From: Gekko japonicus | Lineage: Eukaryota | Direction: 5' to 3' | DNA: 64,000 bases | Assembly: GCF_001447785.1 (NCBI RefSeq) | Contig: NW_015170912.1 | Coordinates: 414,977-478,976 of the forward strand | Shown: positions 522 through 63,444 of the stretch, in pieces | Layout: each line of letters starts with the position of its first letter | How positions within the stretch are numbered: the stretch's first letter is position 1 | Notes under the pieces: generated by a model | The model's input: only the letters and a program-made list of their open reading frames with translations | What the model was told of the DNA's origin: nothing | Databases searched by the model: none | Translations under genes and position numbers: made by a program

Positions 522-785
522 AGGAGGAGGAGATTGGATTTATACCCCGCCCTTCACTTGGAGTCTCAGAGCTGCTTCCCTTCCCCTCCCCACAACAGAC
601 ACCCTGTGAGGTGGGTGGGGCTGAGAGAACTCTGACACAAACTGCGCTTTTTCAAGGACAGCTGTGCCAGAGCTTGCGACTGACCCTAGGTCACATCAGC
701 AGGTGTGAGTGGAGGAGTGGGGAATCAAACCCGGTTCTCCCAGATTAGAGTCCGCACACTTAACCACTACACCAAACTGGCTCTC
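522..785 (-). mobile_element. Squam3-type tRNA-derived SINE
   Basis: tRNA-like head (TGGTGTAGTGGTTAAG...GGTTTGATTCCC on minus), CCTCACAGGGTG core, (TCC)n tail; several copies in window. Confidence 0.75.
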
Positions 786-1166
786 CCATTAATTCTACTT
801 CTACCATTGTTGCTCGGGGGGATTTTAGTTTGGACCTTACGACGGAGGTTCTTAGCACGCGGCGACAGGAAGGACGGCAGGAAGGAAGGGCCGGGCCTCT
901 GCTTGTGGATCCTGCCGGGCCCGGAGGAGGGGCTGTTGTGATGGCCCCCCGAGCCTCGCAGATGCCCGTCCCTTTTCCGCCAGCCAAAAGTCACACGGCG
1001 CCCGGCGGCGAAGGAGAGGAAGAGACGCTCCCTCTGCCTGACGGCCTGACACCTCCCTCGGCGCTAAAGAGAAGGCGGCAGAGGGAAGGGAAGGGGAGGG
1101 CCGACGTTCCCTTCCTCGTCCGTCCTCCCCAAGAAGGGCGGCGAGAGAAAAGGCTGCCTCACTTAC

Positions 1167-1320
1167 TACATCTGTCAGCGGCACACTGAGGAGAGGCGAG
1201 CCGGGCAGCTGCATGCTCCTCTGCCTCAGGCCAGGCCAAGGGAGCTTCCCTGCGCGCCCCTCAACCAACTGACGCGGCGCCTCTCGGCCTCTCTCTGCGG
1301 TGGTCTCTCTCCGCCTCAAA
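1167..1320 (-). other. UFSP2: Probable exon 1 of UFSP2; rest of the gene is upstream of the window; TSS approximate
   Basis: Strong donor (ATGTA|GTAAGT) in the CpG island, divergent from CFAP96; identity inferred only from the known head-to-head synteny, no recognisable UFSP2 peptide in the window. Confidence 0.5.
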
Positions 1321-1499
1321 CGAGAGGGAAGAGCCGGCTTAGGCGTTTGAACTACATTTCCCGTCGGGCACCTCACGCGTCGCGCAGTGCCGCGCTCTTC
1401 TCCGGGGCTGTACCAAATATTCACAGGCGAAGGGGGGGGCTTAGAAAGCCCCTCTTGGTTTAGCGTTTGGGCTTTTCCGAATCCAGGGCAACGACGTCA

Positions 1500-1631
1500 A
1501 CAAACACTCTCGCTGGCAAAGAGATGTTTCGCCAGAAGAAGAGCCTGGTGGTGACGTGGGCGGCGGCGGCGGCGGCTGCTACTGCAGCTTTGGGGGCACG
1601 TGCACTCGCTCTTGCTGGGGGAGAGAAAGGG
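1500..1631 (+). other. CFAP96: CFAP96 non-coding exon 1 (start approximate)
   Basis: Donor GG|GTGAGT at 1632 just downstream of the X-box/CRE; next exon acceptor ...TCTTTCTAG at 4443. Confidence 0.6.
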
Positions 1632-1789
1632 GTGAGTGGACTCTTCAGAGGCTCCAGTAAAGTAGGAGAATTGGGTAATCCCTTTTCCAGGTGATGCCTG
1701 TTTCCCAGTCCTGAAACTTGGTTCCAGACTCCGGCTCTGAAGTGTTCGACATGTATTTATTTTATATATTTATTTATATTTCACGACGT

Positions 1790-1970
1790 GGCTTATGACA
1801 TCATTCTTTGCTCCTCCGCTTTATCCTCACAACAACCCTGTGAGGTCGGCTAAACCAAGAGAGTGTTAATAGGCCAAGATCACCCAGAGAGCTTTTCTGA
1901 CGGAATGGGGATTCGAACCTTGATCCCACGGATCCTAGTCCAACACTCGAGCCACTATATCATGCTGCTG
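1790..1970 (-). mobile_element. Older Squam3/MIR-like SINE
   Basis: ACAACCCTGTGAGG core and B-box-like GGGATTCGAACC. Confidence 0.55.
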
Positions 1971-35500: not shown

Positions 35501-38500
35501 CAAACTCTGCAGATATAACGTCTATACACCTTGTGACTTTGTCAATAGAAATAACAAGTATACATTACTTAATGAAGGTTCTGTTGCTACCACAGTTAAT
35601 GCCTGGGATGCTACACATCTTTATTGCTTTCCCTGCTTCTGGTGGTTTCTGATGGTACCAGTTTTTCCATTCTTTTGGACAGTCAGCTGTCCAGCAGACA
35701 CTGATGGACCAGCTGAGGCCCAGAATCCCTCAGTGTTTGAACTGCCAATTGACTGAAAGCTTTGGGTGCTTGTGCTACCAATGAGAGCTAGTAAAGGGGA
35801 AAAGGGGACAGCAGAAAAGGGGAAAAGACAAGGAGAAGAAAAAGAGGAGAGGGACAGACAACTAAGAAACAGAAGTGCCAAGCAGAAGTGTAGAAAGAAG
35901 AGAAGAAAAAGAGGGGGACAAGAGATGGAGGTACACTCTTGTGGTGCAGGAAGGCGGGTGGAGACTATGAAGTATAGAAAGGTGGAAGGGCTGATGGAGC
36001 AGGCAAGGTGTCTGAAAAATATATGTTGCTACAGAGAGTGGACTGGGTCTTAAAAGGGTAACACAGGCCCCGGGCACACGGGCCAGATATCGCGAGGGGG
36101 AGGGGTGGCTAATGGCCCCGGCGCAGTTTGATCCACGATTACACGGTCAGACGCGCCACTGGCACAGCATGGGTCCTTCCCTCGGCGCCAGTGGGTAAAC
36201 GAGGGACCGGAGGGGAATGCCGCGCGCCAGTGTGATCACACCACGGGCGTCTGGAGGCAGCCTGTGGCAAACATTTACTAGTACCTTGGAGGTACTAGTT
36301 TTTAAATCCACATTGTCGGCGGTAAGCCACGGGTGCACTCCACTTCCCAGATGTTGGGGTGTGATCGCGCCCGGATAATCCGCCCACCTTCTGTGCCTCT
36401 CCTGCGGCAACTTTGCCGTGTGACCGGGGCCACAAATGCCTTTTCATAGAGGTGCAGCATTGCTGAGTAAATACAAATACAAATGTATCTCTGCACTATT
36501 TCAGTTTCACACCCAGGCACTATCGGATAGTCACTTGCTCTTTGCTATACAAAGCTGGATTTATGCAGAGGCTAAGCAAACTACAGTTTAGGATCTGAGA
36601 TTGTGAGGGGTCTCTAAATACAAATAAATTACTAAATGTGGTTACAGGCCCAGCTTTGCTGAGCCTAGATGGTGTTGGAGTGCTCCTGATAGCCTGGCCA
36701 GAAGAAAACAGGGTGGAAGGGGAACCAGAACACTGGCAAGAGGGCAAGGGCCCACCTGGCCAGCCACACTGGTAAAAAGTGGCCAGGCACCAGAGGAAGG
36801 GGAGGAGAGGCAGAGAAGGCAATACAGGGGCGGCAGATGGGAGCTGAAGACAGCACTGGGGTTGAGGAAGGGGCTGGGCTGATTGGGCATGACATGACCA
36901 GCCAGATGACTGAGGGTGGTCTGCAGGCTGTGAAAGGGTCATAGGGGCAAGGAGTGGCCCAGGAGTGTGACTGGGCCTCAGCAACCTGGACAGAGGACTT
37001 GGAGGCCCCAGAAGGCGGGGTGGTGGTGGTGTTGAAACAGGCTCAGGGCAATGGGCAGAAGCCGGAGGAAGGCCTTGGAGCCCTGGAGCACCAGACAAGG
37101 CATGCCAGCAAGGGGACTTTGGGCCCAGGACAGCTGCTTAGTGGGCAAAGAAGGAGGCTTGTGTTCAGGCCTTCCAGGGACTGGAAGGCACAGCAGTGTG
37201 AGGGGAAGCATGGTGGCAGCAACAGCACTCAACAATCAGCAAAGCCAAGGAAGATCCTGACTGCCATCCAGTGGCTGGGTGCCCGGTCCGAGGCCACAGC
37301 CCACAGTTACACTAAAGATGACTGAGCTACTTGTCTGATTATAACTTTGGTAATACTATGAGGCCTCTTAACCGTGATATAGTTTATGGCCTAAGCATGT
37401 CCTACGGCCCTGGTAGTATGTGAACAGTAAAGAAGTTAAATACTGCTGAAAGTAGGGTTGCAATATCAACAAGTGCCCATATACGTGCATTCTCTGTAGT
37501 GGTCCCCACCTTATGGATTGGTCTGCCTGAGGAGGTGAGGAAGGCTACCACCCTCCTTGGCTTTCAGCAAACTATGCAGAACTGAATTATTCAGGAATGC
37601 GTTTTTACAGAGTTAACAGAACAGATAGTTCAGGATAATGCTTTGATAAAGGGAAAGGGGCTGTAGACTATATTACTTGTACAGTACCTTTTATCTGTTG
37701 TTATTATGTAATTTGTACATTAACATGCCACGTGTTAATACTTATACTTTGTTTCAGATTTGTGCAATCCTAAATCTCTACATGGTTCACTGGATGTCAC
37801 ATCCTGTTCATTTTATTGACTTACATTGTGTAACCCACTTCCAGTCTCAGTGAGAAAGGCGGACTATAAATCCTGTCCTGAAGATTTGTGGGTGGAGTTT
37901 GGGGAGGGAAGAAAGCTTAGCAGTGGTATGATAGTACAGAATCCACTCCCCAAAGTAGCCATTTTCTCTAGGGGACCTGATCCTTGTAAATCTGGAGACC
38001 TGTCCTAATTCTGGGAGAATTCCAGGCCCCACTTAGAGGTTGGAAACCATGGCAGAAACTATTGCTAGAGAAGTAAAACGGCAAATGTGGGCTTACAATG
38101 AGGCGCACAGGTCCCACCACCTGCCAATGATAAATCTCACATTATGAGGGAGGAAGCCTTGGAGAAACGCTCCTCTGGCTCACAGAGAGGGGGACACAAT
38201 GACGTCACGATTCGCGCAGCCTCATGCACAGGTGCGATGACATCACAGCCAAGCACAGCATACACACTAAAGTAGTCGGAAGGGAGAGGAGGGATGGCAA
38301 GGCTCCCCGTCTCTCCCCCCCCCCCCAAAGGCCATGGGGTTTGTTTCAGTGGAAAGCTGGTGTGCCCGGCACCTGTTGTTCCTGCGTCCTGGATCCCCGG
38401 CTCAGAGACCAGAACCGAGGGCGAGATCTTCTCCTTATCCTCCGACCTCCGCCAGCGGCGGCTGCCTCCGTGGACGCATTCCTGGTCGGTTCCTGCAGCA

Positions 38501-38602
38501 ACACAGCCTTGGCGTTAACTCAATTTACTCTCTCCGCCATAATCTCCTCCCGCCCCACCAAGCCTGAACCCCTCCGGGCACGTGCAATTCACCGGCTCTC
38601 AT
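17422..38602 (-). CDS. CCDC110: Coiled-coil domain-containing protein 110, CDS join(38602-38593,38492-38373,35483-35431,33551-33486,27742-27632,25406-23348,17594-17422), ~863 aa; last exon tentative
   Basis: Conserved N-terminal block QSALK|ILQLQMESFQALRQQTLQSVSM|VQSEISEILNK as recalled for CCDC110; one 2-kb coiled-coil exon; phases consistent; synteny between CFAP96 and PDLIM3. Confidence 0.9.
18111..18301 (+). mobile_element. 5S-rRNA-derived SINE (5S-Sauria type)
   Basis: 5S-like head GCCTGATCTCATCAGATCTCTGAAACTAAGCAGG...GGGAGACC, RTE-type tail GCAATGGCAAACCAC; 10-bp TSD TCTTCATACC. Confidence 0.75.
19211..19617 (+). mobile_element. Probable non-autonomous Helitron
   Basis: A|TCTATATATC start, subterminal hairpin GTGA-GTA-TCAC, CTTG|T end, no TSD. 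Confidence 0.5.
20815..21159 (+). mobile_element. Sauria SINE, full length
   Basis: 13-bp TSD CTAATGTGTGGTA (20802-20814 / 21160-21172). Confidence 0.88.
21336..21807. mobile_element. Two Squam3-type SINEs tail-to-tail (+ 21336-21592; - 21605-21807)
   Basis: Same consensus in opposite orientations. Confidence 0.75.
22440..22494. other. Assembly gap (55 N)
   Basis: Run of N. Confidence 1.
23348..25406 (-). CDS. CCDC110: CCDC110 large coiled-coil exon 6 (2059 nt)
   Basis: Contains the 683-aa ORF with E/K/Q/L heptads; acceptor (TC)nAG at 25407; donor GTATGT at 23347. Confidence 0.93.
25409..25430. repeat. (GA)n microsatellite
   Basis: Directly visible; abuts the CCDC110 exon 6 acceptor. Confidence 0.95.
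26443..27215 (-). mobile_element. CR1 LINE internal fragment (ORF1 esterase end plus ORF2 endonuclease start)
   Basis: VHVGTNDVG (SGNH-type ORF1), DIVGISETWW, VCYRPP, GDFNYP. Confidence 0.85.
27632..27742 (-). CDS. CCDC110: CCDC110 coding exon 5
   Basis: VQSEISEILNKNIADVK...TSTPIRVAM; TTCTACAG / GTATGT. Confidence 0.92.
28455..31642 (+). mobile_element. Near-full-length degenerate L2 LINE ORF2 (APE endonuclease + RT), antisense to CCDC110
   Basis: VYRPP, LGDFNVH, GHTLDL, SDHH, LLDLSAAFDTVDH, GVPQG, DTDDTQ (from YADDTQ), LQLVQNAAARL; (AATA)n tail; multiple stops and frameshifts. Confidence 0.92.
32850..32935 (+). mobile_element. Penelope-like element pLTR fragment with hammerhead core
   Basis: CTGATGA...GAAA core then TTGGTCTTAAAGGTGCCACTGGACTCAAAC; flanking direct repeat TGTCTTAGG; related pieces at ~100-180, 8533-8580, 38829-38895, 39922-40105. 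Confidence 0.65.
33160..33365. mobile_element. hAT MITE (second copy inverted at ~42060-42263)
   Basis: TIR CAGTGTTCCCTCTAAGCTG; 8-bp TSD ATTGAGAC/ATTGAGAT. Confidence 0.8.
33486..33551 (-). CDS. CCDC110: CCDC110 coding exon 4
   Basis: ILQLQMESFQALRQQTLQSVSM; TGTAG / GTAAGA. Confidence 0.93.
33745..34205 (-). mobile_element. Possible solo LTR
   Basis: TGTTAC start, candidate GTTAG 5-bp repeat at 33740 and 34202, minus-strand TATAA (~33952) and ATTAAA (~33820). Confidence 0.35.
35431..35483 (-). CDS. CCDC110: CCDC110 coding exon 3
   Basis: DKSASRRDGQGQAQSALK; TTTTCCAG / GTAAGT. Confidence 0.88.
36066..36431. mobile_element. PIF/Harbinger-type MITE (family H)
   Basis: TIR GGCCCCGG(G/T)CACACGG; 3-bp TSD ACA; internal ACTAGTACCT...AGGTACTAGT palindrome. 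Confidence 0.8.
38373..38492 (-). CDS. CCDC110: CCDC110 coding exon 2
   Basis: 120 nt, phase 1-1, open (GTDQECVHGG...DAGTT); TTGCTGCAG / GTGCCG. Confidence 0.7.
38593..38602 (-). CDS. CCDC110: CCDC110 coding exon 1 (ATG AGA GCC G|gtgaat)
   Basis: AAG-ATG in the CpG island, 10-nt phase-1 coding stub followed by a donor. Confidence 0.75.
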
Positions 38603-39921
38603 CTTGTTTTCCGCTTCGCCTCGTTCAAACCGCGACTCTGCCGCCCAAACCGCCGCTCCGCCCAAGGCAGCGTCACGTTGCTACGCAACGAATGTCCCAC
38701 GAGATGAGACGAGTCGGGAGCAGTGGTTTACCAGAGCCCCTACTGCGCATGCGCATCTGTGCGCCACCTAGCGACCGCGGGAGCTTCTGGCAAGATTCCT
38801 TGCCTTTAGGTACATTTAACAGCCTTCGAGTTCAGTGGCACCTTTAAGACCAGCAAAGGTTTATTCAAGGTATGAGCTTTCGTGCACACGCACTGTTTAT
38901 CAAATATATAGCAAGGCTTGGGAAGATTTTTTTTAAAAAAACCTAAACAAGGTGCTTTGGTTTTATTACGGAACGTCATTACTTCAGTAGCTTCCATCAC
39001 CGCGCCCGCGGGAGCTTGCAAACCTGTTAATTCGGGGGGAGTGGGGGGAGAAATCGCATTTTCACCTATAGTTTGTCACCCCAGTACACGCGATGAATCA
39101 GGCTTTGAGGTTATCTCCCATCTGCGACAACAAAATTGCTCCACTTCAGTTCGACAAACCGGATAAAGGATATCGGGGATGTGAGGGCACACAACTAAAA
39201 AGCCCAGGGTCGCCCTAAAGACTAACAAAATGTATCCCAACATTACTGTTCCTGACTTAGAGATCACCGTTCAGTTTCCACGCTGTTGTTTCTGGTCTTT
39301 CATTATTTTAATTAATTATAAAAAAAAGAGAGCTGGCGAAATAAGGTCAGGAGCCTAATACCTATAATTAGATGCTCCTATTCTCCTCCCCATTAGTGTG
39401 TTCCTGGAAAAAAGACTAAATGTGAATGTCATTTGGAGTGCTCCACCGCGTCTTCTCTCCTTTTCCTTTGTACAGATTTGTGCATTGGAAACACAGTATC
39501 AAATGTGTCATCAAGTTCCGACCAATTGAGCTGACATTTTATGCTAATTTGTTTCCACCGAAAGCAGCACATGAAGCAGGGAACAACAAACAAAAGTGCA
39601 GTCCAATATTTTTTAACACAAACCAAGAAGGGAACCATTTGGAAATCTTACTTCACCCCACTCTCATGTCTTTCAGGCACCAGGCTGGTTTCTCCTCTCC
39701 CTTTCATTCCTCCAGCTGATGCTGCTGTCCAGGGCCCATCCCTTCTAGAGCATGTTTAGTCCCCGTAGAGCTCGGTCTTGAGCATGGGAGAGGGTAGTTT
39801 ACGAAGTCATACATTTCTGCATACCTATGTAGTCCTCCAAGTAGATGGCCTTGTTGTGTTGTTTTCACACGGGCTAGCCACTTGACTAACAAATACAGTT
39901 ATAACATTCAGAAATACAAAG

Positions 39922-47100: not shown

Positions 47101-50100
47101 ACTTAGATACTACTATCAAGTATAAAAGCAATTGTATTAAGCATACATAACTGATGTTTTAGAGTGTATTATTGTACTGATATTGGCCCCTGTTTTGTTT
47201 TCTTTGGAGTATTACTAGATGCAAACATCAGCTCTACAGCTTCAGTTAGTATATCATGACGTATTAAATATTAATTTACTATTATTCCTATCTAACATGT
47301 TTTAATTTTGGTTAAAATGGCATCTCAACAGCTCACTGTCTTGGTATACATCCGTTATTGTTATCAATGTTAATGTTCTTCTTTTACCCACTGAATATAC
47401 ACACCATTGATAGAGTAGTTTTAAATTTCAAAGCTCTTCACGTAAATTCACAGCCCTGTTAGGTAGACCAGTATTACCCAGGGGTCATTTCCTAGAAAAA
47501 GAGGTGCAGGAGCTCATTTGCATAACTCATTTGCATATGCCACACCCCCTGACAAAGGGCAGGCATGTTTAAATTTAGTTAAGGCATATGCAAATGAGTT
47601 TAAATCCCCCACAGAGAGGCTCAGGGGGAAAGGGGCCATATCTGCCCACCTCCCCTTCCCCTGTCCAGCCAACCCACCGCAGCGGGCTGGCTGGAGAAGG
47701 GGAGGGCAGGGAAGCAGACATGCCTGGCTCCCCAGCCCGATCTTCTCCAGGTGCACCTGGAGAAGATTGGGCAGGGAACCCAGGGATTTAAATCCCCCCC
47801 AAGTCTCTCCACCGGTGGCCAGGAAAGGCAGGGGGCGGGGCCTGGGCTCCTTACTGCCAGAGCGCTGCTCTGGCAGGAAATGACCCCTGGTATTATCTAT
47901 ATAACTAATTCTGAAACTGGCCCCAGAGTGCAGATTTTAAAATCTGCACAATGGGGCCAGGGACAGACACAGGAGATATTTCTGCAAAACTTAGGGAGCC
48001 CTCAGGTATACAAAAAATTAAATTAAAAAGGAGTGGGGTTGAAAGAAAATTAAAAATATTTAAGATGGATAAAAACTAGAACTAACCAGATTCTTCAGAG
48101 ACCATATCCTGGAGAATCTTAAAGGAACCAGACTGACGTGGTTGACTCGATCCTTCCTGATTATCATGTAGCATCCTATAAACGTCAGACTTGGGTGCTG
48201 AAGCTGGTACTGGGTCGCTGCAAAGTCAATAAGGGTCAGAAATATGGTTAACCAATAAAGAATGGAAGGAGCAAGCAGTAGCATGTCAACTGATCAAAAC
48301 TGTAATTATTCTCAACTTTTATACATAATTTCATATAACTTTCATATAATACAGGTACAAGTTTTATTTTTTAACGAAACAAATGCTTACCATAACTGTA
48401 TCATTTTATACTAATGAACATTAATAATATTGGTCATTTCCAGTTCTAGCCAAGTGTGGGACAAGACAAGGTTTACATAGAACCAGAGTTTAGATTCTCA
48501 AGGTTAGAGACCTGACCTCCTAGAATAGTTTTTTCCTGTACTTCTGCCAACAGAGCACACAAAACCACTGTCCAGATGAGCTCATTGGTTGTTGCTTAAT
48601 GTCCAGCAGTAAGGGACAAATAAAGTAAAAGTATCTTTGAACACATGCTTAATCTATAGGCACACATTTTAAAACTTTCACTTCTTGCCAAGAGAAGTGG
48701 CAGCTAATGGTTTCAGATTCACGGCTTAATCTTGAGTAGTCATCACAAAGGTGATTGCAGTGTCCCACAAGAAAAGGGATTTGAGGCTACCAGACACAAA
48801 ACACTCTGGCATTACAATAGCTCTTCCAAGTTCATGCCTAGTGAAAATGAAACCCACCGACAGAGATGTCTCAAAGCTCCTTTTACTGGAAGACTTCCCA
48901 AAAGCATGTTACTTGCAATGCAATCAATGCAGATTAGTTCAGGATTCTAGGTAGTGGGTAATGTCACTGGACTTTATATTACCAGGAGTCACTGTCTCGA
49001 CATTGGAACATCTTTGGTCAATGTATTGAAAGTTCCAAATTTTAAGAGAGGTTTTTTATTTTCTAGAAGCTTAATTTAAGTGGCTATATTTGTGTCTCTG
49101 TGGTAATTTAAAGGCAATCCCATGTATGTTGAAAGAGTTTTAGACTGTTAGAGGAGAATCAACAGAAAACCGTCTGATAAGTGAAGTAAAAAAATGTATC
49201 ATATATTATATTTGATGGAACAAGTATTGTCCACTGGTCTATTTTAAGGCATACTTCTTGCTTTAGGAAATGATAGTAAAGCAGAGAACAAAAGGATATT
49301 GTGCTTTGAGCTGCAAAAGTACAAACTGCTAAACTCTGAAAAAGCAAATGTACACCTGCATAAACATTCAATATCTCATACAAAACATTTTAATAGCTGA
49401 CAAATAACTGCACTAGTTAGAGCCACCCCAAATATAAATATATAGAAAAACAGACTCCCTTTTTATCATTTGTGGACTCAGGTAAGATTGACTTGCAGGC
49501 ACATATGCTGAAAGCTCGAGATATAAGTAATATAATAGAGCAGCAACATTTTACCTAACTTTTATGAAGACTAAAATATCCCTCGCTATTAATACTTATC
49601 CATCTGATAGCCACGTTTTGCTATTTTTGTCTTTTGTGGACAGCTAGATGCCATTGCTTTTTTGGGGAGCTTTTATGCAACACTGCGCTTATTTCAAGCC
49701 TGACTAGTGGGGCTCCTAAGTCTTTCTCTTTGAGCCGGAGCAAACCCCCCCCCCCGCCATTTGTACCAGTTCAAAAGTGACTGTGGATGGAGCATCCATG
49801 CGGATACTTTGCCTACAACCAATCTGAGGAGGGTGGTGCAGCTAAGCTCCGCCTTCAGAATAGCAGAGCTAACATATGCTTTTCCTCTCTTCCCTTCAGT
49901 CCTTTAGTAGGCTTTTTTCCCATTCCACAGTTGAATAATGATGTAGTGTTAGCACACAGGCTCAGCTGTGACTGGGAAAAGGATGAGGAAAGGGGTTGCA
50001 CTTGCCAGGCTACAGAGGGACAGCATCCCAGTTATTTGCTCATGCCCCTCCGAGTCAATTGAGACCCTTTTCCATATATTATTCCAGTGTTCCTACTATG

Positions 50101-53100
50101 CAGAAGAAAGAGCCCTTTTAATTACACCTATAATAAGGTCATTCAGACACCAAGGACAATTAGTAATCCACTCTGAGGAACTTTTGCTGAAACATCTATT
50201 GGAGGACAAATCCATTGCAATATCAAGGAATGTTGCCAAATTTCTCTTTATTGCATTTACAAAGCGTAAGCTCCTCCTCAATGTTCCTCATGATATCTCT
50301 TCTCTGTAATGCTTTTTGCTTTTGTTCTGTATGCTATTCTATGGGTCTCTGACCGTAATAAAATGAATGGACAGCATCCCAGCTACTTTCACCCCATTCA
50401 TTGCTGCTCCTGTGGCAGGGGGTGGCACTTCATGCCTCTGTGTGGAACTGGCCCTGATGAAATTTTAAATCTTATATTATGTGACAATGTCATGTACTAA
50501 ACAGAATTACATTTTTGGCTTCAGTGGACTTAGAAGGATATAACTTTGCTTAGGATTGGACTGAAATTGATGTAATTATCATTTGCCTATCTATGGCCCC
50601 GGTCACACGAGCTGGATATCGCGAGGGGGGGGAGGCGTGGCTGTTTGCCCCACAGCGAAATAACGCGCAACTGCATGATCAGGCGTCCCCTCGTAGTCCC
50701 GTCGAGGTCCCGTGGTTAGGAGGGAGGTGCCGATCACACGACGCGCCAAAGAAGCGGCACGGCACGGCAAACGGGGTTGTGGGGTTTTTTTAACCTGACG
50801 TATGCGCATGCCCCGTTGGGTGCTTGTGCGCACCCCTGGAGACTTCGAAAAAACCCCACCTTTTCGCAATGGGGCATGGGCGGGCGCCGGATGCCACTGG
50901 AAACGCGATCAGACGCCTGCCCTTGCCCCGCGATTTCCGGAAACTAGTACCTCTGAGGTACTAGTTTTTAACCGTGCATCTTCGGAGGGAAGCCTCGGGT
51001 TCGCCACGGGAGCTCTACGCTTCCCAGATGTGGAGGCGAGATCGCGCTCGGAAAATCCGCCTATCTTCTGTCGCAGTAGCGTGGCTACTGCTCCGTGTGA
51101 TCGCAGCCTATATTGGATAATGTTATAAAATTTGAAAGAAGGCTTCCCCCATTTTCTAAATATAACTGCATTAAAATACACAGAACAGGCAGCCAATATC
51201 CCACATCATCTGTTTTAAAAATCTGATAACCAACTTTTTCACCCTAAAAACTGCCCATAGATCCAGTTTATCAGTGAAAAACCAGATAACAGAACTATTG
51301 CAAACCTTCCTTAATTTTAAATTGTTCATAGAGTCTAAATTAGGGGACTCCAACCTTTTTGAGGCTGTGAGCACCTTTGCAATTTTGAGACAAGGTGGTG
51401 AGCACCATCCCAAAATGGCTTCCACAGAAGGTAGAGCCAGACTCAAAATGGCTGCTGCAGGAGAAGGAGCCAAATGGAACACCTCCCTGCTCACACCTAA
51501 TAGGAAGAAGAAAATCTTGACGGGGGAACAGAACCATACCCTAACTAAGGAAAGCCCAGCTGTTTACTAGTCCCCCTTCTCATCCAATGGAAAACTCATT
51601 TGAATGAAAGAAGCCAATTAACAATTCCTGCCTAACAATGGTCCCACCCACTTTTTGAAAAGACTGGCAGGCACCAGTGGAAGTGGCAGTCTCCATGATA
51701 CCACAGGTACCATGTTGGGGAACCCTGGTCTAGAGCATGCAGAAATCTACAACTGGATTTATGTTCTGAAATGCCTTTTCTCAGATAAGAGCACATGACA
51801 GAAAGTAGGGTTTCCAAATCCCCCCGGGGGGCGGAATTCCCCCCGGTTTCGAGCCCCGATTCCCGCTCCCGCCGAATCGGGGCCTGGGGGAAACCTCACC
51901 CCTGCGTGTGCATCACCCGGAAGTGACGTCGCACGCTGGGGGCGGGGCGACGCCATTTGAGGGGAAAACAAAGAGTTTTCCCCTCAAATGGCGTGGCCCC
52001 GCCCAGCGTGTGACGTCACTTCCGGGTGACGCTCCGGAAGTGCGGGCGCACGTCCCCGGCCGGCTCCCGGAGCAACAGGACGCTCCCCCGCCGGTAAGAT
52101 TTTTCTATTTGGCAACCCTAACAGAAAGTCATATGGACAAATATGAGAATGAATTCTAGCATACTTTGAATATCATCATTTGCTAATAATCTGTTCAAAT
52201 GTTTAATGATTTGCATGCCATAACTTTAAAATTGCATGCATTCACTGTTTTTAAGTCTTAATAATGAATGGAGCAAGAACAGGTAATCGTAGCAATATTC
52301 ATGCATTAGTAAATATGTCTCTCTCTCTCTCATACACACACACACACTCTCTCTCATTACCTTATTGGGGGTATCTCCCCCAGTGCTGTAGAAACCTGAC
52401 CCTGCAGCGTTTCCATAATATTGTCATCTGAATATAACTGCATAGGTGTGTTAAACTGAGCATGTACAATCTTGACACCGGGAAGTTCCATTTCTAAGGG
52501 AATGTTGGGGGCCATCTTAGCTGCTGCTTTCAACTCAGTAGGGCAGATAGTGCTAACAGTGCTAACTGAAGAGGGTGTGCTACGTCCACTGCCGCCGTCA
52601 ATACCAGAAGGAGTACTGCAAACACTGTGCCAAAAACCAGTATATAAAAGAACATGTGATGCAAACCAGAGAGGAAAACAGAGATGAAGAACAGGAGCAG
52701 AAGCATTTGCAAGGGATTGAGTGAATCAAATGCAAGGGGAAAAAACAACAACCAGAATGTGTCATTTTGTTGTTTACTGCATAATATGCCAAAAAATTTT
52801 CACGGCTTCTTTTTCATCCAAGGTTTAATTAAGCCTCATATTTTGGCACATAATCATGTGAGATTTGCAGACAGGGTACAGCAAAATTTAATCTGACCAG
52901 ATTCAGACACCAATCAAGACCAGAAGAAAAATCCAGAAAGCAAACTTTTTTCCAGTCCTGTGTGCAAAGCAACAACAATCTGATGAAATGCTTTAACTCC
53001 ATCCTCTGTCCTATGTGGCATTGTATTAATGGACAATGTAACCACACATCACTGAATACTGTGCTATTTTTACACCGTAGCAACCATTTGCACCTGGATT

Positions 53101-61700: not shown

Positions 61701-62853
61701 AGCAGGACTCCCCAGGGTGTTGCCTTTAGGCACCACAGCACCCAACAATAATCCCTGGCTCCTGACAGGCTTTTCAGAAAGTAGGTGGGGCTGCTGTAAG
61801 GCAGGGTTTATAATTTGCAGCCATCATTCAAATGAAAAGGCTTTTAATGGCCACAACAGCAGGTTTTGAAGAATCCGGAGGACTGGACAGTTAAGTATTC
61901 CCTCTTCAGGCTTTCCTTCTTTTTATCTATCATCTTTCTTCCATCCTCCCCATTGGCTTTCTTCATTTATTTATTATTCCTGTTCTGTGGTTTGTTGGCA
62001 GCAAGGAAGGAGGTATTTGGCATGGTTCCAACTCCTGTGGTAGCCATTTTGGGTTTGGAACTCATTACATCCTCCAAAAATTCCAAACGTGCCCCCAGGA
62101 TCAAAAAGCTTGAGGACCCATGGGTTAAAGCATGGGAAAGATTAGTCTGCATTAACCAAGTGAACCCTAGAGGATGCCCTGCCTACACGGGACTCCAAAG
62201 ATCTTTGTGCATGTTTCTGTCCATTACACATTTAGATTAGAGTGCTGGTGCTGTGTAGTGGTTAGAGTTCTGGACTAGGAAGCAGCGAGACCTAGGTTCA
62301 AATTCCCTCTCAGCCAAGAAGCTAACTGGGTGATGTTGGGCCCTATGACCCTCTCTCAGTCTAATCTACTTCACAGGGTTGTTGTGAGTACTATTTTGTA
62401 GGAGAACCCAGCCCACTGCCCTGCATGTAGAATTGAAGTGTGGCAGATATTTATCCTGCTCTTTGACTAAGAAGACACAGGCAGATACGTGGCCCTCTCC
62501 TCCTCCATTTTATTCCTACTCCACCCTTTGAGGAATTTTAGGCTGACTAAATGTATAGCCCAAAATTTAAATGGAAAATTGAACCCGAGTCATATTCAGA
62601 CACTTCTGTATCACACTCTGTCTTCTGCTTGTGCCCAATCATATTCATGCACAAGAGATCTTTCACCCATCTTCACTTTTGACTGCATTTTCTCACACTG
62701 CAGGTGAAGCTGTTCCCAAGAGTCCTCCTGAATTTCCAGATCAGCTTTTCAGGGATACCAGGACAGTAGTGAGATGGGATCTGAGCAGCCCCAGTATGTC
62801 CTACAGATATCTTGTATGCTGACCTGAATCTTGCTCATTGGGTTGGATACTAT

Positions 62854-63285
62854 GGCCCTGTCCATACGAGGCGGTTTGGGCCGGGAGGGGGACGGAACGG
62901 GGGCGGAGCAAACGGGCGCGATCCCACGGCAACATCTGGGAATCGGTGCCTGCCCGTCCCTGTTCCGTCCCAAACGGCGATACCGCGCTGTAAAAAAGAA
63001 CCACCTACCTAGGTGGTTGTATCCCTTCCAGCGCTGCAAGCCGGGCCGTGGGATTGGGCGGCGCGTCCTTGCGCCACCGCATCCCGGCCCCCGGCCGTAC
63101 TGCGCATGCTTGAGCATGCACAGTTCGGCAGCCTCCCCCTCCCATCGGACTTTCCTCCCTGGCATCTGATCGTGCTGGGGAGCGATGCGCCGCGGCTGAG
63201 GGGATCCGTGGGATCCCGCCGCGGCGTCTCAAGTTCGGTGCGGCTCTGCTTAGCCGCGTTTCAGCCGTCCCGTGTGGCAGCAGCC
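62854..63285. mobile_element. CpG-rich Harbinger-like MITE
   Basis: Ends GGCCCTGTCCATACG / CGTGTGGCAGCAGCC resemble family H; TSD not clean. Confidence 0.55.
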
Positions 63286-63444
63286 AAAGACTGTCTTCCA
63301 CCAAGTCTTGTCTTCTTTCAACAGAAAAAGACTTGCTTCACCAGAGAAAGATTGTTCTCCATAAGAGAAAGTCTGTCTTGTGAAAGAAAACTTAGCAGAA
63401 GAAAATTATAGGATCCACATGGAGCTCCCCACCCCCCACCCCCG

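What the first reader, a model, noticed from the sequence alone, without database searches (positions are those of the whole stretch)
51806..52120. hAT MITE carrying a mirror-symmetric housekeeping-promoter cassette (ETS-CRE, Sp1, YY1) beside a regulated PDLIM3 exon
Seen: inside the TIRs and TSD, 51913-51969 and 51975-52029 form a near-perfect hairpin. Each arm carries the composite ETS-CRE CCGGAAGTGACGTC (51917-51930; inverted copy with perfect CRE TGACGTCA at 52011-52025), a GC box (GGGGCGGGGC at 51939-51948) and a YY1-type CGCCATTT (51951-51958). A third CCGGAAGTG (52034) and a plus-strand donor-like CCG|GTAAGA (~52094) follow. CpGs are intact. Established: CCGGAAGTGACG is a GABPA/CREB composite typical of CpG-island promoters. 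Inference: this may be a portable bidirectional promoter or unmethylated-island seed, sitting 240 nt from the donor of the skeletal 264-nt exon, able to fire antisense or internal PDLIM3 transcripts.
Basis: partly seen in the sequence, partly recalled or inferred. Interest (0 to 1): 0.7.

Follow-up and report, generated by a model that had tools for sequence, protein, structure and literature searches.

The report
Promoter-mimic mini-transposon in a PDLIM3 intron
A 315-base jumping element in an intron of the muscle gene PDLIM3 is one copy of a very large transposon family whose best-kept internal words match housekeeping-promoter motifs, but its sister copies lose those motifs as fast as the rest of the element, so this copy is likely a silent passenger and not a working promoter.

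Summary
The anatomy is real: 14-bp TIRs, 8-bp TSD, a 123-nt hairpin, an exact ETS-CRE 16-mer, 240 nt from a PDLIM3 exon donor. The reading as a working promoter or unmethylated-island seed is not supported. In 41 copies picked by their end sequence, CpG transitions run 8.5 times above other C/G transitions (10.3% vs 1.2%), and motif positions decay like the rest (CpG 82/791 vs 213/2067, p=0.95). The window copy decays likewise; its third CCGGAAGTG is itself a CpG-decay product. Three shallow RNA runs show no start pile-up or donor use. The cassette belongs to the element, not the locus: the ETS-CRE word occurs 35,585 times here with CpG decay allowed (control 302), 3,289 intact; human has 226. 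Across diverged MITE lineages with the same TIR, the two most shared internal words are the ETS-CRE core and ACTCTATG, which resembles a ZNF48-bound promoter motif; the YY1-like site and GC box are lineage-specific. This hints at selection on the element itself, untested. No matching transposase was found. The scan noted similar promoter-plus-donor hAT MITEs elsewhere in this genome, also judged silent.

The parts
51798..51805 (+). Left 8-bp target-site duplication ACAGAAAG
   Evidence: identical to 52121-52128
51806..52120 (.). Non-autonomous hAT-type MITE, 315 bp, 66% GC, 33 CpG
   Evidence: 39 other near-full-length copies at 89-94% among the 40 scored
51806..51819 (+). Left TIR (14 bp; private C>T at 51813)
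51910..51969 (+). Left hairpin arm
51917..51930 (+). ETS-CRE composite, left arm; core shared across MITE lineages
51939..51948 (+). GC box; found in only some lineages
51951..51958 (+). YY1-like CGCCATTT (imperfect); only in this lineage (1 of 16 clusters)
51970..51974 (.). Hairpin loop; occurs in both orientations among copies (32 forward, 18 inverted, 1 variant, 11 unscorable of 62). Sister lineages carry AAAACTCTATGG at this centre
51975..52032 (-). Right hairpin arm (inverted copy of the left arm)
52010..52025 (-). Exact ETS-CRE 16-mer CCGGAAGTGACGTCAC
   Evidence: motif as printed in the PMC4555227 abstract start and PMC3464117 passages
52034..52042 (+). Third ETS word; consensus CCGGAAGCG, T at 52040 is a CpG transition
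52091..52099 (+). Outward-facing donor-like CCG|GTAAGA, antisense to PDLIM3; no use seen in RNA
52107..52120 (-). Right TIR
52121..52128 (+). Right 8-bp target-site duplication
52236..52310 (-). Host intronic motifs between exon and MITE: TGCATG 56 and 121 nt and ACTAAY 51 nt after the donor (RBFOX/QKI labels recalled); untouched by the insertion
52361..52624 (-). PDLIM3 alternatively spliced exon (264 nt; likely the 'exon 6' of the muscle isoform); a second possible acceptor gives 255 nt
   Evidence: translation; length; the gene's LIM exon best matches alpha-actinin-2-associated LIM protein, E 3e-27; isoform scheme from PMC3983107 passages

Best explanation
This is a young copy of a non-coding hAT-type cut-and-paste mini-transposon that landed 240 nt into a PDLIM3 intron, and its promoter-like hairpin was inherited with the element and is likely methylated and silent at this site. 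Shown: TIRs, an 8-bp TSD, many dispersed copies with their own TSDs, CpG-biased decay that does not spare the motifs, and a hairpin loop found in both orientations. Inferred: an unidentified hAT transposase moves it in trans; the hairpin arose by one fold-back duplication and its loop is flipped by exchange between the arms; after insertion the copy is methylated, which would block ETS and CREB binding. The ETS-CRE core, the CTCTATGG word and, in some lineages, an outward donor likely descend from a promoter/first-exon module of the family's ancestor (its own promoter or a captured host one). They are kept better than their spacers between lineages, which points to a role for the element while it is multiplying and not for the host gene beside it.
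For: TSD with at most 1 mismatch at 38 of 48 copies found by the right-end 28-mer. In 41 of those 48 (6 lacked a left end, 1 dropped as right end only): CpG transitions 295/2858 (10.3%) vs non-CpG C/G transitions 53/4395 (1.2%); motif vs non-motif CpG decay 82/791 vs 213/2067 (p=0.95); non-CpG substitutions 43/1860 vs 141/5158 (p=0.35). No low-decay subset among 34 near-complete copies (chi2 23.5, df 33); window copy typical (P=0.18); both 11-mers intact in 14 of 34, neither in 11. Genome-wide 3,289 of 35,585 degenerate ETS-CRE 14-mers are intact. Methylation inhibits ETS and CREB binding (PMC3464117 passage). RNA: no start/end pile-up, no joint at the donor; reads on the element mostly carry other copies' letters; RNA/DNA depth on the hairpin bin 0.06 (X21) and 0.04 (X24) vs 0.35-1.4 and 0.08-0.28 on neighbouring repeat bins. 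Family trait: ETS-CRE in 20 of 35 TIR/TSD-defined elements and 11 of 16 clusters; top shared internal 8-mers GAAGTGAC and ACTCTATG, 8 of 16 clusters each, shuffle maximum 6; cross-lineage identity 0.74-0.81 at ETS-CRE vs 0.61 mean, 0.57 at the YY1-like site, 0.64-0.66 at the GC box.
Against: CpG decay reports germline history, not somatic chromatin; this copy still has both ETS-CRE 11-mers and could be open in muscle. The RNA runs barely express PDLIM3 (downstream exon depth 1-3), tissues are unknown, GC-rich hairpins clone poorly, only the best-supported loose ends were listed, and in X23 the hairpin ratio (0.03) was above its neighbours (0.01-0.02) because of 19 reads from another copy. With about 2% non-CpG divergence, weak selection on a few copies would be invisible. 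No autonomous partner was found, so hAT membership rests on TIR and TSD. The cross-lineage sample is small, includes 200 kb chosen for being rich in this family, and forgives CpG transitions; an unbiased 392-kb replicate gave only 3 elements (1 with ETS-CRE, 2 with CTCTATGG). The outward donor replicated weakly (3 of 22 held-out elements, 0 inward).
Confidence: 0.75

Rival explanations
1. One reading: this copy is an unmethylated, GABP/CREB-bound bidirectional promoter that fires antisense RNA (spliced from the 52093 donor) or internal PDLIM3 transcripts.
For: Exact ETS-CRE 16-mer plus a second 14-mer, GC boxes, CpG o/e 0.97; 60% of human 11-mers lie in housekeeping DHS (PMC3464117 section 17); another family copy seems transcribed in run X23 (19 reads).
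Against: Family-wide and in-copy CpG decay, motifs not spared; 3,289 intact sites here against 226 in human means most are not promoters; no start pile-up, no donor joint, zero depth in the bin next to the donor.
Confidence: 0.07
2. The element acts at RNA level: its 123-nt near-perfect stem in the pre-mRNA alters inclusion of the nearby exon, or is edited or cut like a miRNA precursor.
For: Sense-strand stem folds at -116.8 kcal/mol; it starts about 330 nt from the donor of a regulated exon (isoform scheme in PMC3983107 passages).
Against: The stem pairs only within the element; the TGCATG and ACTAAY motifs lie between exon and insertion and are intact; all 11 Rfam matches are far below gathering score (best 40.5 vs 92 bits).
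Confidence: 0.1
3. The conserved words are subterminal transposase-binding sites, or plain shared ancestry, and only happen to look like host promoter motifs.
For: The lineages are related throughout their arms; hAT transposases bind short subterminal repeats (recalled); the abundant 220-bp family and 4 other clusters with the same TIR lack ETS-CRE, so it is not needed for mobility.
Against: The words sit 70-170 nt inside, not at the ends; two separate top words both match published vertebrate promoter motifs, the second found de novo before the paper was read; sequence diverges right after the 11-mer that PMC3464117 calls the core.
Confidence: 0.3

Closest known systems
Non-autonomous hAT elements / MITEs of vertebrates (e.g. 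MER1, MER30, MER107 as derivatives of Charlie elements; PMC5753468 passages)
   Same: Short, non-coding, TIR-bounded, 8-bp TSD, dispersed high copy number, decaying after insertion.
   Different: No autonomous partner identified; the subgroup (Blackjack-like by recalled TIR resemblance) was not tested; the interior is a CpG-rich hairpin built on promoter motifs.
ETS-CRE composite motif bound by GABPA and CREB1 (PMC3464117 passages and section 17; PMC4555227 abstract start)
   Same: Exact 16-mer in the right arm, 14-mer in the left; the 11-mer core is the part shared across lineages.
   Different: In human the 11-mer occurs 226 times, mostly in open promoters; here the 14-mer occurs 3,289 times intact and 35,585 times with CpG decay, and 10 of 11 sampled sites lay near a MITE TIR (random 27%).
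ZNF48-bound promoter motif TCTCTATGGT (PMC13017510 passages)
   Same: Sister lineages carry ACTCTATGGT (9 of 10 letters) at the hairpin centre; AAAACTCTATGG occurs 34,096 times (control 293).
   Different: This copy's lineage has lost the word (AAAACTCTTTG); binding was not tested; the first letter differs.
Multicopy Pack-TIRs, e.g. Pack-hAT-N8_XT carrying the CAPSL 5' UTR (PMC8277862 passages)
   Same: A hAT shell around promoter/5'-end-like sequence, amplified by transposition.
   Different: No host parental copy identified; the interior is palindromic, old and present in thousands of copies.

Membership tests
hAT superfamily | 8-bp target-site duplication | tested here: met
   38 of 48 end-defined copies with at most 1 mismatch
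hAT superfamily | Short TIRs beginning (T/C)AG-G (pattern recalled) | tested here: met
   14-bp TIR TAGGGTT(G/C)CCAAAT
hAT superfamily | A hAT transposase-coding element with the same ends | tested here: inconclusive
   None in 30 of 150 PF05699, 20 of 131 PF14291 and 30 of 131 PF02892 match loci, nor in 40 extended loci; the families whose ends were found have other TIRs; most candidates were not scored or fetched
MITE | Short, non-coding, TIR-bounded, many dispersed copies | tested here: met
   315 bp; 983 exact matches of an arm 25-mer, control 0; 48 exact right ends
CpG-island housekeeping promoter | Over 200 bp, GC above 50%, CpG o/e above 0.6 (criteria recalled) | tested here: met
   315 bp, 66% GC, o/e 0.97
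CpG-island housekeeping promoter | Unmethylated in the germline (no CpG hypermutability) | tested here: not met
   CpG transitions 8.5 times other C/G transitions; window copy typical
CpG-island housekeeping promoter | Factor sites conserved relative to flanks among host copies | tested here: not met
   p=0.95 (CpG) and p=0.35 (non-CpG)
CpG-island housekeeping promoter | Transcription starts and open chromatin | tested here: inconclusive
   no pile-up in three shallow RNA runs of unknown tissue; no CAGE or ATAC available
ETS-CRE composite site | Overlapping CGGAAGTGACG 11-mer / 16-mer | tested here: met
   51918-51928 and 52010-52025
ETS-CRE composite site | Bound by GABPA and CREB1 in vivo | not testable with these tools
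   needs ChIP or footprinting
Pack-TIR | Interior traced to a host parental locus outside the TIRs | tested here: inconclusive
   of 30 loci fetched from 1,761 ETS-CRE..CTCTATGGT matches, 22 had TIR pair plus TSD and 7 more at least one TIR-like end; 1 had none and was not followed
miRNA precursor (Rfam) | Score above a family's gathering threshold | tested here: not met

The most novel reading that the evidence does not exclude
A lizard hAT MITE swarm evolves as a promoter mimic: lineages that keep the GABP/CREB site, a ZNF48-type word and sometimes an outward 5' splice site recruit host housekeeping factors to fresh copies, delay their methylation and keep them open to transposase, so host-factor sites are selected at the level of a non-coding DNA transposon, seeding tens of thousands of latent promoter motifs.
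Probability: 0.3. Interest if true: 0.72.

Novelty: new member of a known kind. Interest (0 to 1): 0.38.

Why it matters
For PDLIM3 it probably does not matter: this looks like one ordinary insertion among thousands. The family is the interesting part. It has multiplied a motif that is rare and promoter-bound in mammals by one to two orders of magnitude, which gives a large natural pool of latent promoters held down by methylation, and a warning that motif scans in this genome will mostly hit transposons. If the motifs are kept because they help the element move, it would be a testable case of a non-coding DNA transposon selected to bind host housekeeping factors.

Tried and rejected
Autonomous partner: searches with PF05699, PF14291 and PF02892 and 40 extended loci found hAT families with other TIRs and domesticated ZBED-like genes, none with these ends or motifs. 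Longer derivatives: the 7 copies with a right end but no matching left end are 5'-truncated, not long elements. Unmethylated subset of copies: rejected, decay is not overdispersed. YY1 and Sp1 as family-wide parts: rejected, CGCCATTT-type in 1 of 16 clusters, GC box in 4 of 16. Outward donor as a universal part: rejected; strong in the discovery set (GGTRAG in 10 of 51 end types, 0 inward, shuffle mean 0.66; the wider pattern was chosen after seeing the data) but only 3 of 22 held-out elements. Unbiased replicate: 392 kb gave 3 elements, too few. miRNA: below thresholds. A recalled likeness to human MER53 as a hAT element was not borne out: PMC5753468 lists MER53 under Mariner. PMC9250109 passages gave no TIR sequence; the CTCTATGG hits in PMC6035183 are sequencing adaptors.

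Full report
1. Observation. The element spans 51806-52120 with 14-bp TIRs (13 of 14 complementary) and the 8-bp duplication ACAGAAAG on both sides. Arms 51910-51969 and 51975-52032 form a hairpin; the whole element folds at -126 kcal/mol as DNA, z = -12.9, 0 of 100 shuffles as stable. All listed motifs are at the stated places; the right arm holds the full 16-mer CCGGAAGTGACGTCAC that PMC4555227 (abstract start seen) and PMC3464117 (passages) define as the ETS-CRE site. The YY1-like word is one base off the recalled consensus. The host gene is PDLIM3 on the minus strand: its LIM exon best matches alpha-actinin-2-associated LIM protein, two other exons match LIM and DUF4749, and the exon 240 nt from the element measures 264 nt. 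Its label as the muscle-type exon follows the isoform scheme in PMC3983107 (passages) and recalled exon sizes. The organism label 'lizard/gecko' comes from earlier scan notes and recall and was not tested.

2. It is one of many copies. A DNA search of the own genome had 3,974 candidates; the 40 scored were this copy and 39 near-full-length copies at 89-94% identity. A 25-mer from the left arm matches exactly 983 times, control 0. The right-end 28-mer defines the narrow subfamily: 48 exact matches, all examined; 38 have a TSD with at most one mismatch, 4 have a left end without a TSD, 6 have no left end.

3. Test of the 'intact CpG, conserved motif' claim. I used those end-defined copies so that the interior was not selected; 41 of 48 were scored, with the two ends and the loop excluded. 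CpG positions show 295 transitions in 2,858 (10.3%), other C/G positions 53 in 4,395 (1.2%): the signature expected from germline methylation. Motif CpGs decay at 82/791, other CpGs at 213/2067 (p=0.95); non-CpG substitutions are 43/1860 in motifs and 141/5158 outside (p=0.35). Its high CpG content reflects youth. Genome-wide, 3,289 of 35,585 degenerate ETS-CRE 14-mers are intact (controls 35 and 302); some variants may be ancestral, so 9% is not a pure decay figure. PMC3464117 states that methylation inhibits ETS and CREB binding.

4. RNA. Three raw RNA runs of one study and one DNA run were laid on 47900-52430 at 96% likeness. There was no place where many molecules begin or end and no joint at the donor; the listed loose ends include none at 52093 (100 further rows were not shown). 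Reads on the element mostly carry other copies' letters. Hairpin RNA/DNA depth was 0.06 in X21 and 0.04 in X24, below neighbouring repeats (0.35-1.4 and 0.08-0.28), but 0.03 in X23, above its neighbours (0.01-0.02), where 19 reads come from one other copy. PDLIM3 is barely expressed in these runs, so this is weak evidence.

5. The cassette is a family trait. In 810 kb of genomic sequence (including the window and 200 kb picked for richness in this family) 35 elements had this TIR type with a TSD; 20 carry the ETS-CRE word (shuffles 0.05), 4 of 9 in the stretch not picked for it. They fall into 16 clusters; 11 carry the 11-mer with at most one mismatch. The two internal 8-mers shared by most clusters, found de novo, are GAAGTGAC and ACTCTATG (8 of 16 each; shuffle mean 4.9, maximum 6). 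Aligned to this subfamily, the other 15 clusters match best at the TIRs, then at the two ETS-CRE sites (0.81, 0.74; interior mean 0.61), with the GC boxes near the mean (0.64, 0.66) and the YY1-like sites below it (0.57) (CpG transitions forgiven). The second word resembles TCTCTATGGT, a motif in 57 human promoters bound by ZNF48 (PMC13017510 passages); AAAACTCTATGG occurs 34,096 times here, control 293, and follows an intact ETS-CRE within 20-50 nt 1,761 times, control 0. This copy's lineage has lost that word. Human has 226 ETS-CRE 11-mers, 60% in housekeeping open chromatin. An outward GGTRAG lies just inside one TIR in 10 of 51 end types of ETS-CRE-bearing elements, 0 inward, 0 of 16 in motif-free elements, never at both ends of one element; in a held-out set it was in only 3 of 22 elements. 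A replicate on 392 kb of unselected sequence yielded 3 elements, 1 with ETS-CRE, CTCTATGG and donor together: consistent but too small.

6. Hairpin. The 5-nt loop is forward in 32 and inverted in 18 of 62 distinct sequences, and by eye both forms occur on three different right-end backgrounds. This suggests repeated exchange between the arms, which would keep them alike without any regulatory selection (inference).

7. Mechanism. Shown: TIR/TSD insertion, dispersed copies, CpG-biased decay that ignores the motifs, loop inversion, motif sharing across lineages. Inferred: mobilisation in trans by a hAT transposase that I could not find; fold-back origin of the hairpin; methylation after insertion; descent of the motifs from a promoter/first-exon module, either the ancestral element's own or one captured Pack-TIR fashion (PMC8277862 passages). 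For this locus I put silent passenger at about 0.75-0.8, an RNA-level effect at 0.1 and a working promoter at 0.07. For why lineages keep the words: selection through host-factor binding about 0.3-0.4, shared ancestry or transposase sites about 0.3, the rest undecided.

8. Novelty. A new member of the non-autonomous hAT/MITE kind. Six paper searches found no description of this family or of ETS-CRE-bearing MITEs; the library lacks most subscription papers, no supplements were read, and Dfam/Repbase could not be searched, so the family may already be catalogued. Earlier scan notes hold no look-alike by sequence or by words, but describe promoter-plus-donor hAT MITEs and Pack-type hAT elements elsewhere in this genome; those are unchecked notes and not independent support.

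9. Verdict. Observation largely right, locus-level interpretation not supported, family-level pattern worth a proper genome-wide test. Interest 0.38.

Noticed in passing
L262-L291 and end list; window 52095-52106: The 10-20 nt just inside one TIR differ almost completely between otherwise similar MITE lineages, while the other end is nearly constant: a hypervariable subterminal patch, cause unknown.
   Followed up: partly
L141:2309-8457, L150:1986-6894, L139:4676-7578, L093/L132: Two abundant GC-rich hAT transposase groups; where ends were found the TIR is TAGGGATGGGCAC-like with an 8-bp TSD; one copy has a 791-aa open frame.
   Followed up: partly
L174:3263-5539 (G000:C16346) and G000:C1132:790146: A young-looking 2.3-kb hAT element with TIR CAGGGGTGGCGAAC, 8-bp TSD and a 643-aa open frame; a second place shows the same frame length.
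   Followed up: no
window 52615-52624, minus strand: Two possible acceptors 9 nt apart give an exon of 264 or 255 nt in the same frame.
   Followed up: no
window 50028-50480 and 50500-51200: Two other multicopy repeats in the same intron, the second CpG-rich; both draw more RNA reads per DNA read than the MITE in two of three runs.
   Followed up: no
window 701-1800, 36001-36500, 38201-39300, 62701-63400: Further CpG-rich patches in the window without this TIR.
   Followed up: no
run X23, loose end at 51913: 19 RNA reads with one uniform flank match the left arm: another family copy appears to be inside an expressed transcript.
   Followed up: no
G000:C16:100001-300000, C11202:200001-400000, C3384 and C8942 1000001-1200000: Density of TIR/TSD-defined MITEs varies widely: 20 and 9 per 200 kb against 3 per 392 kb; the first stretch was picked for richness.
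   Followed up: no
window 51410-51480: Repeated AAAATGGC words upstream of the element, also seen in the abundant 220-bp MITE family.
   Followed up: no
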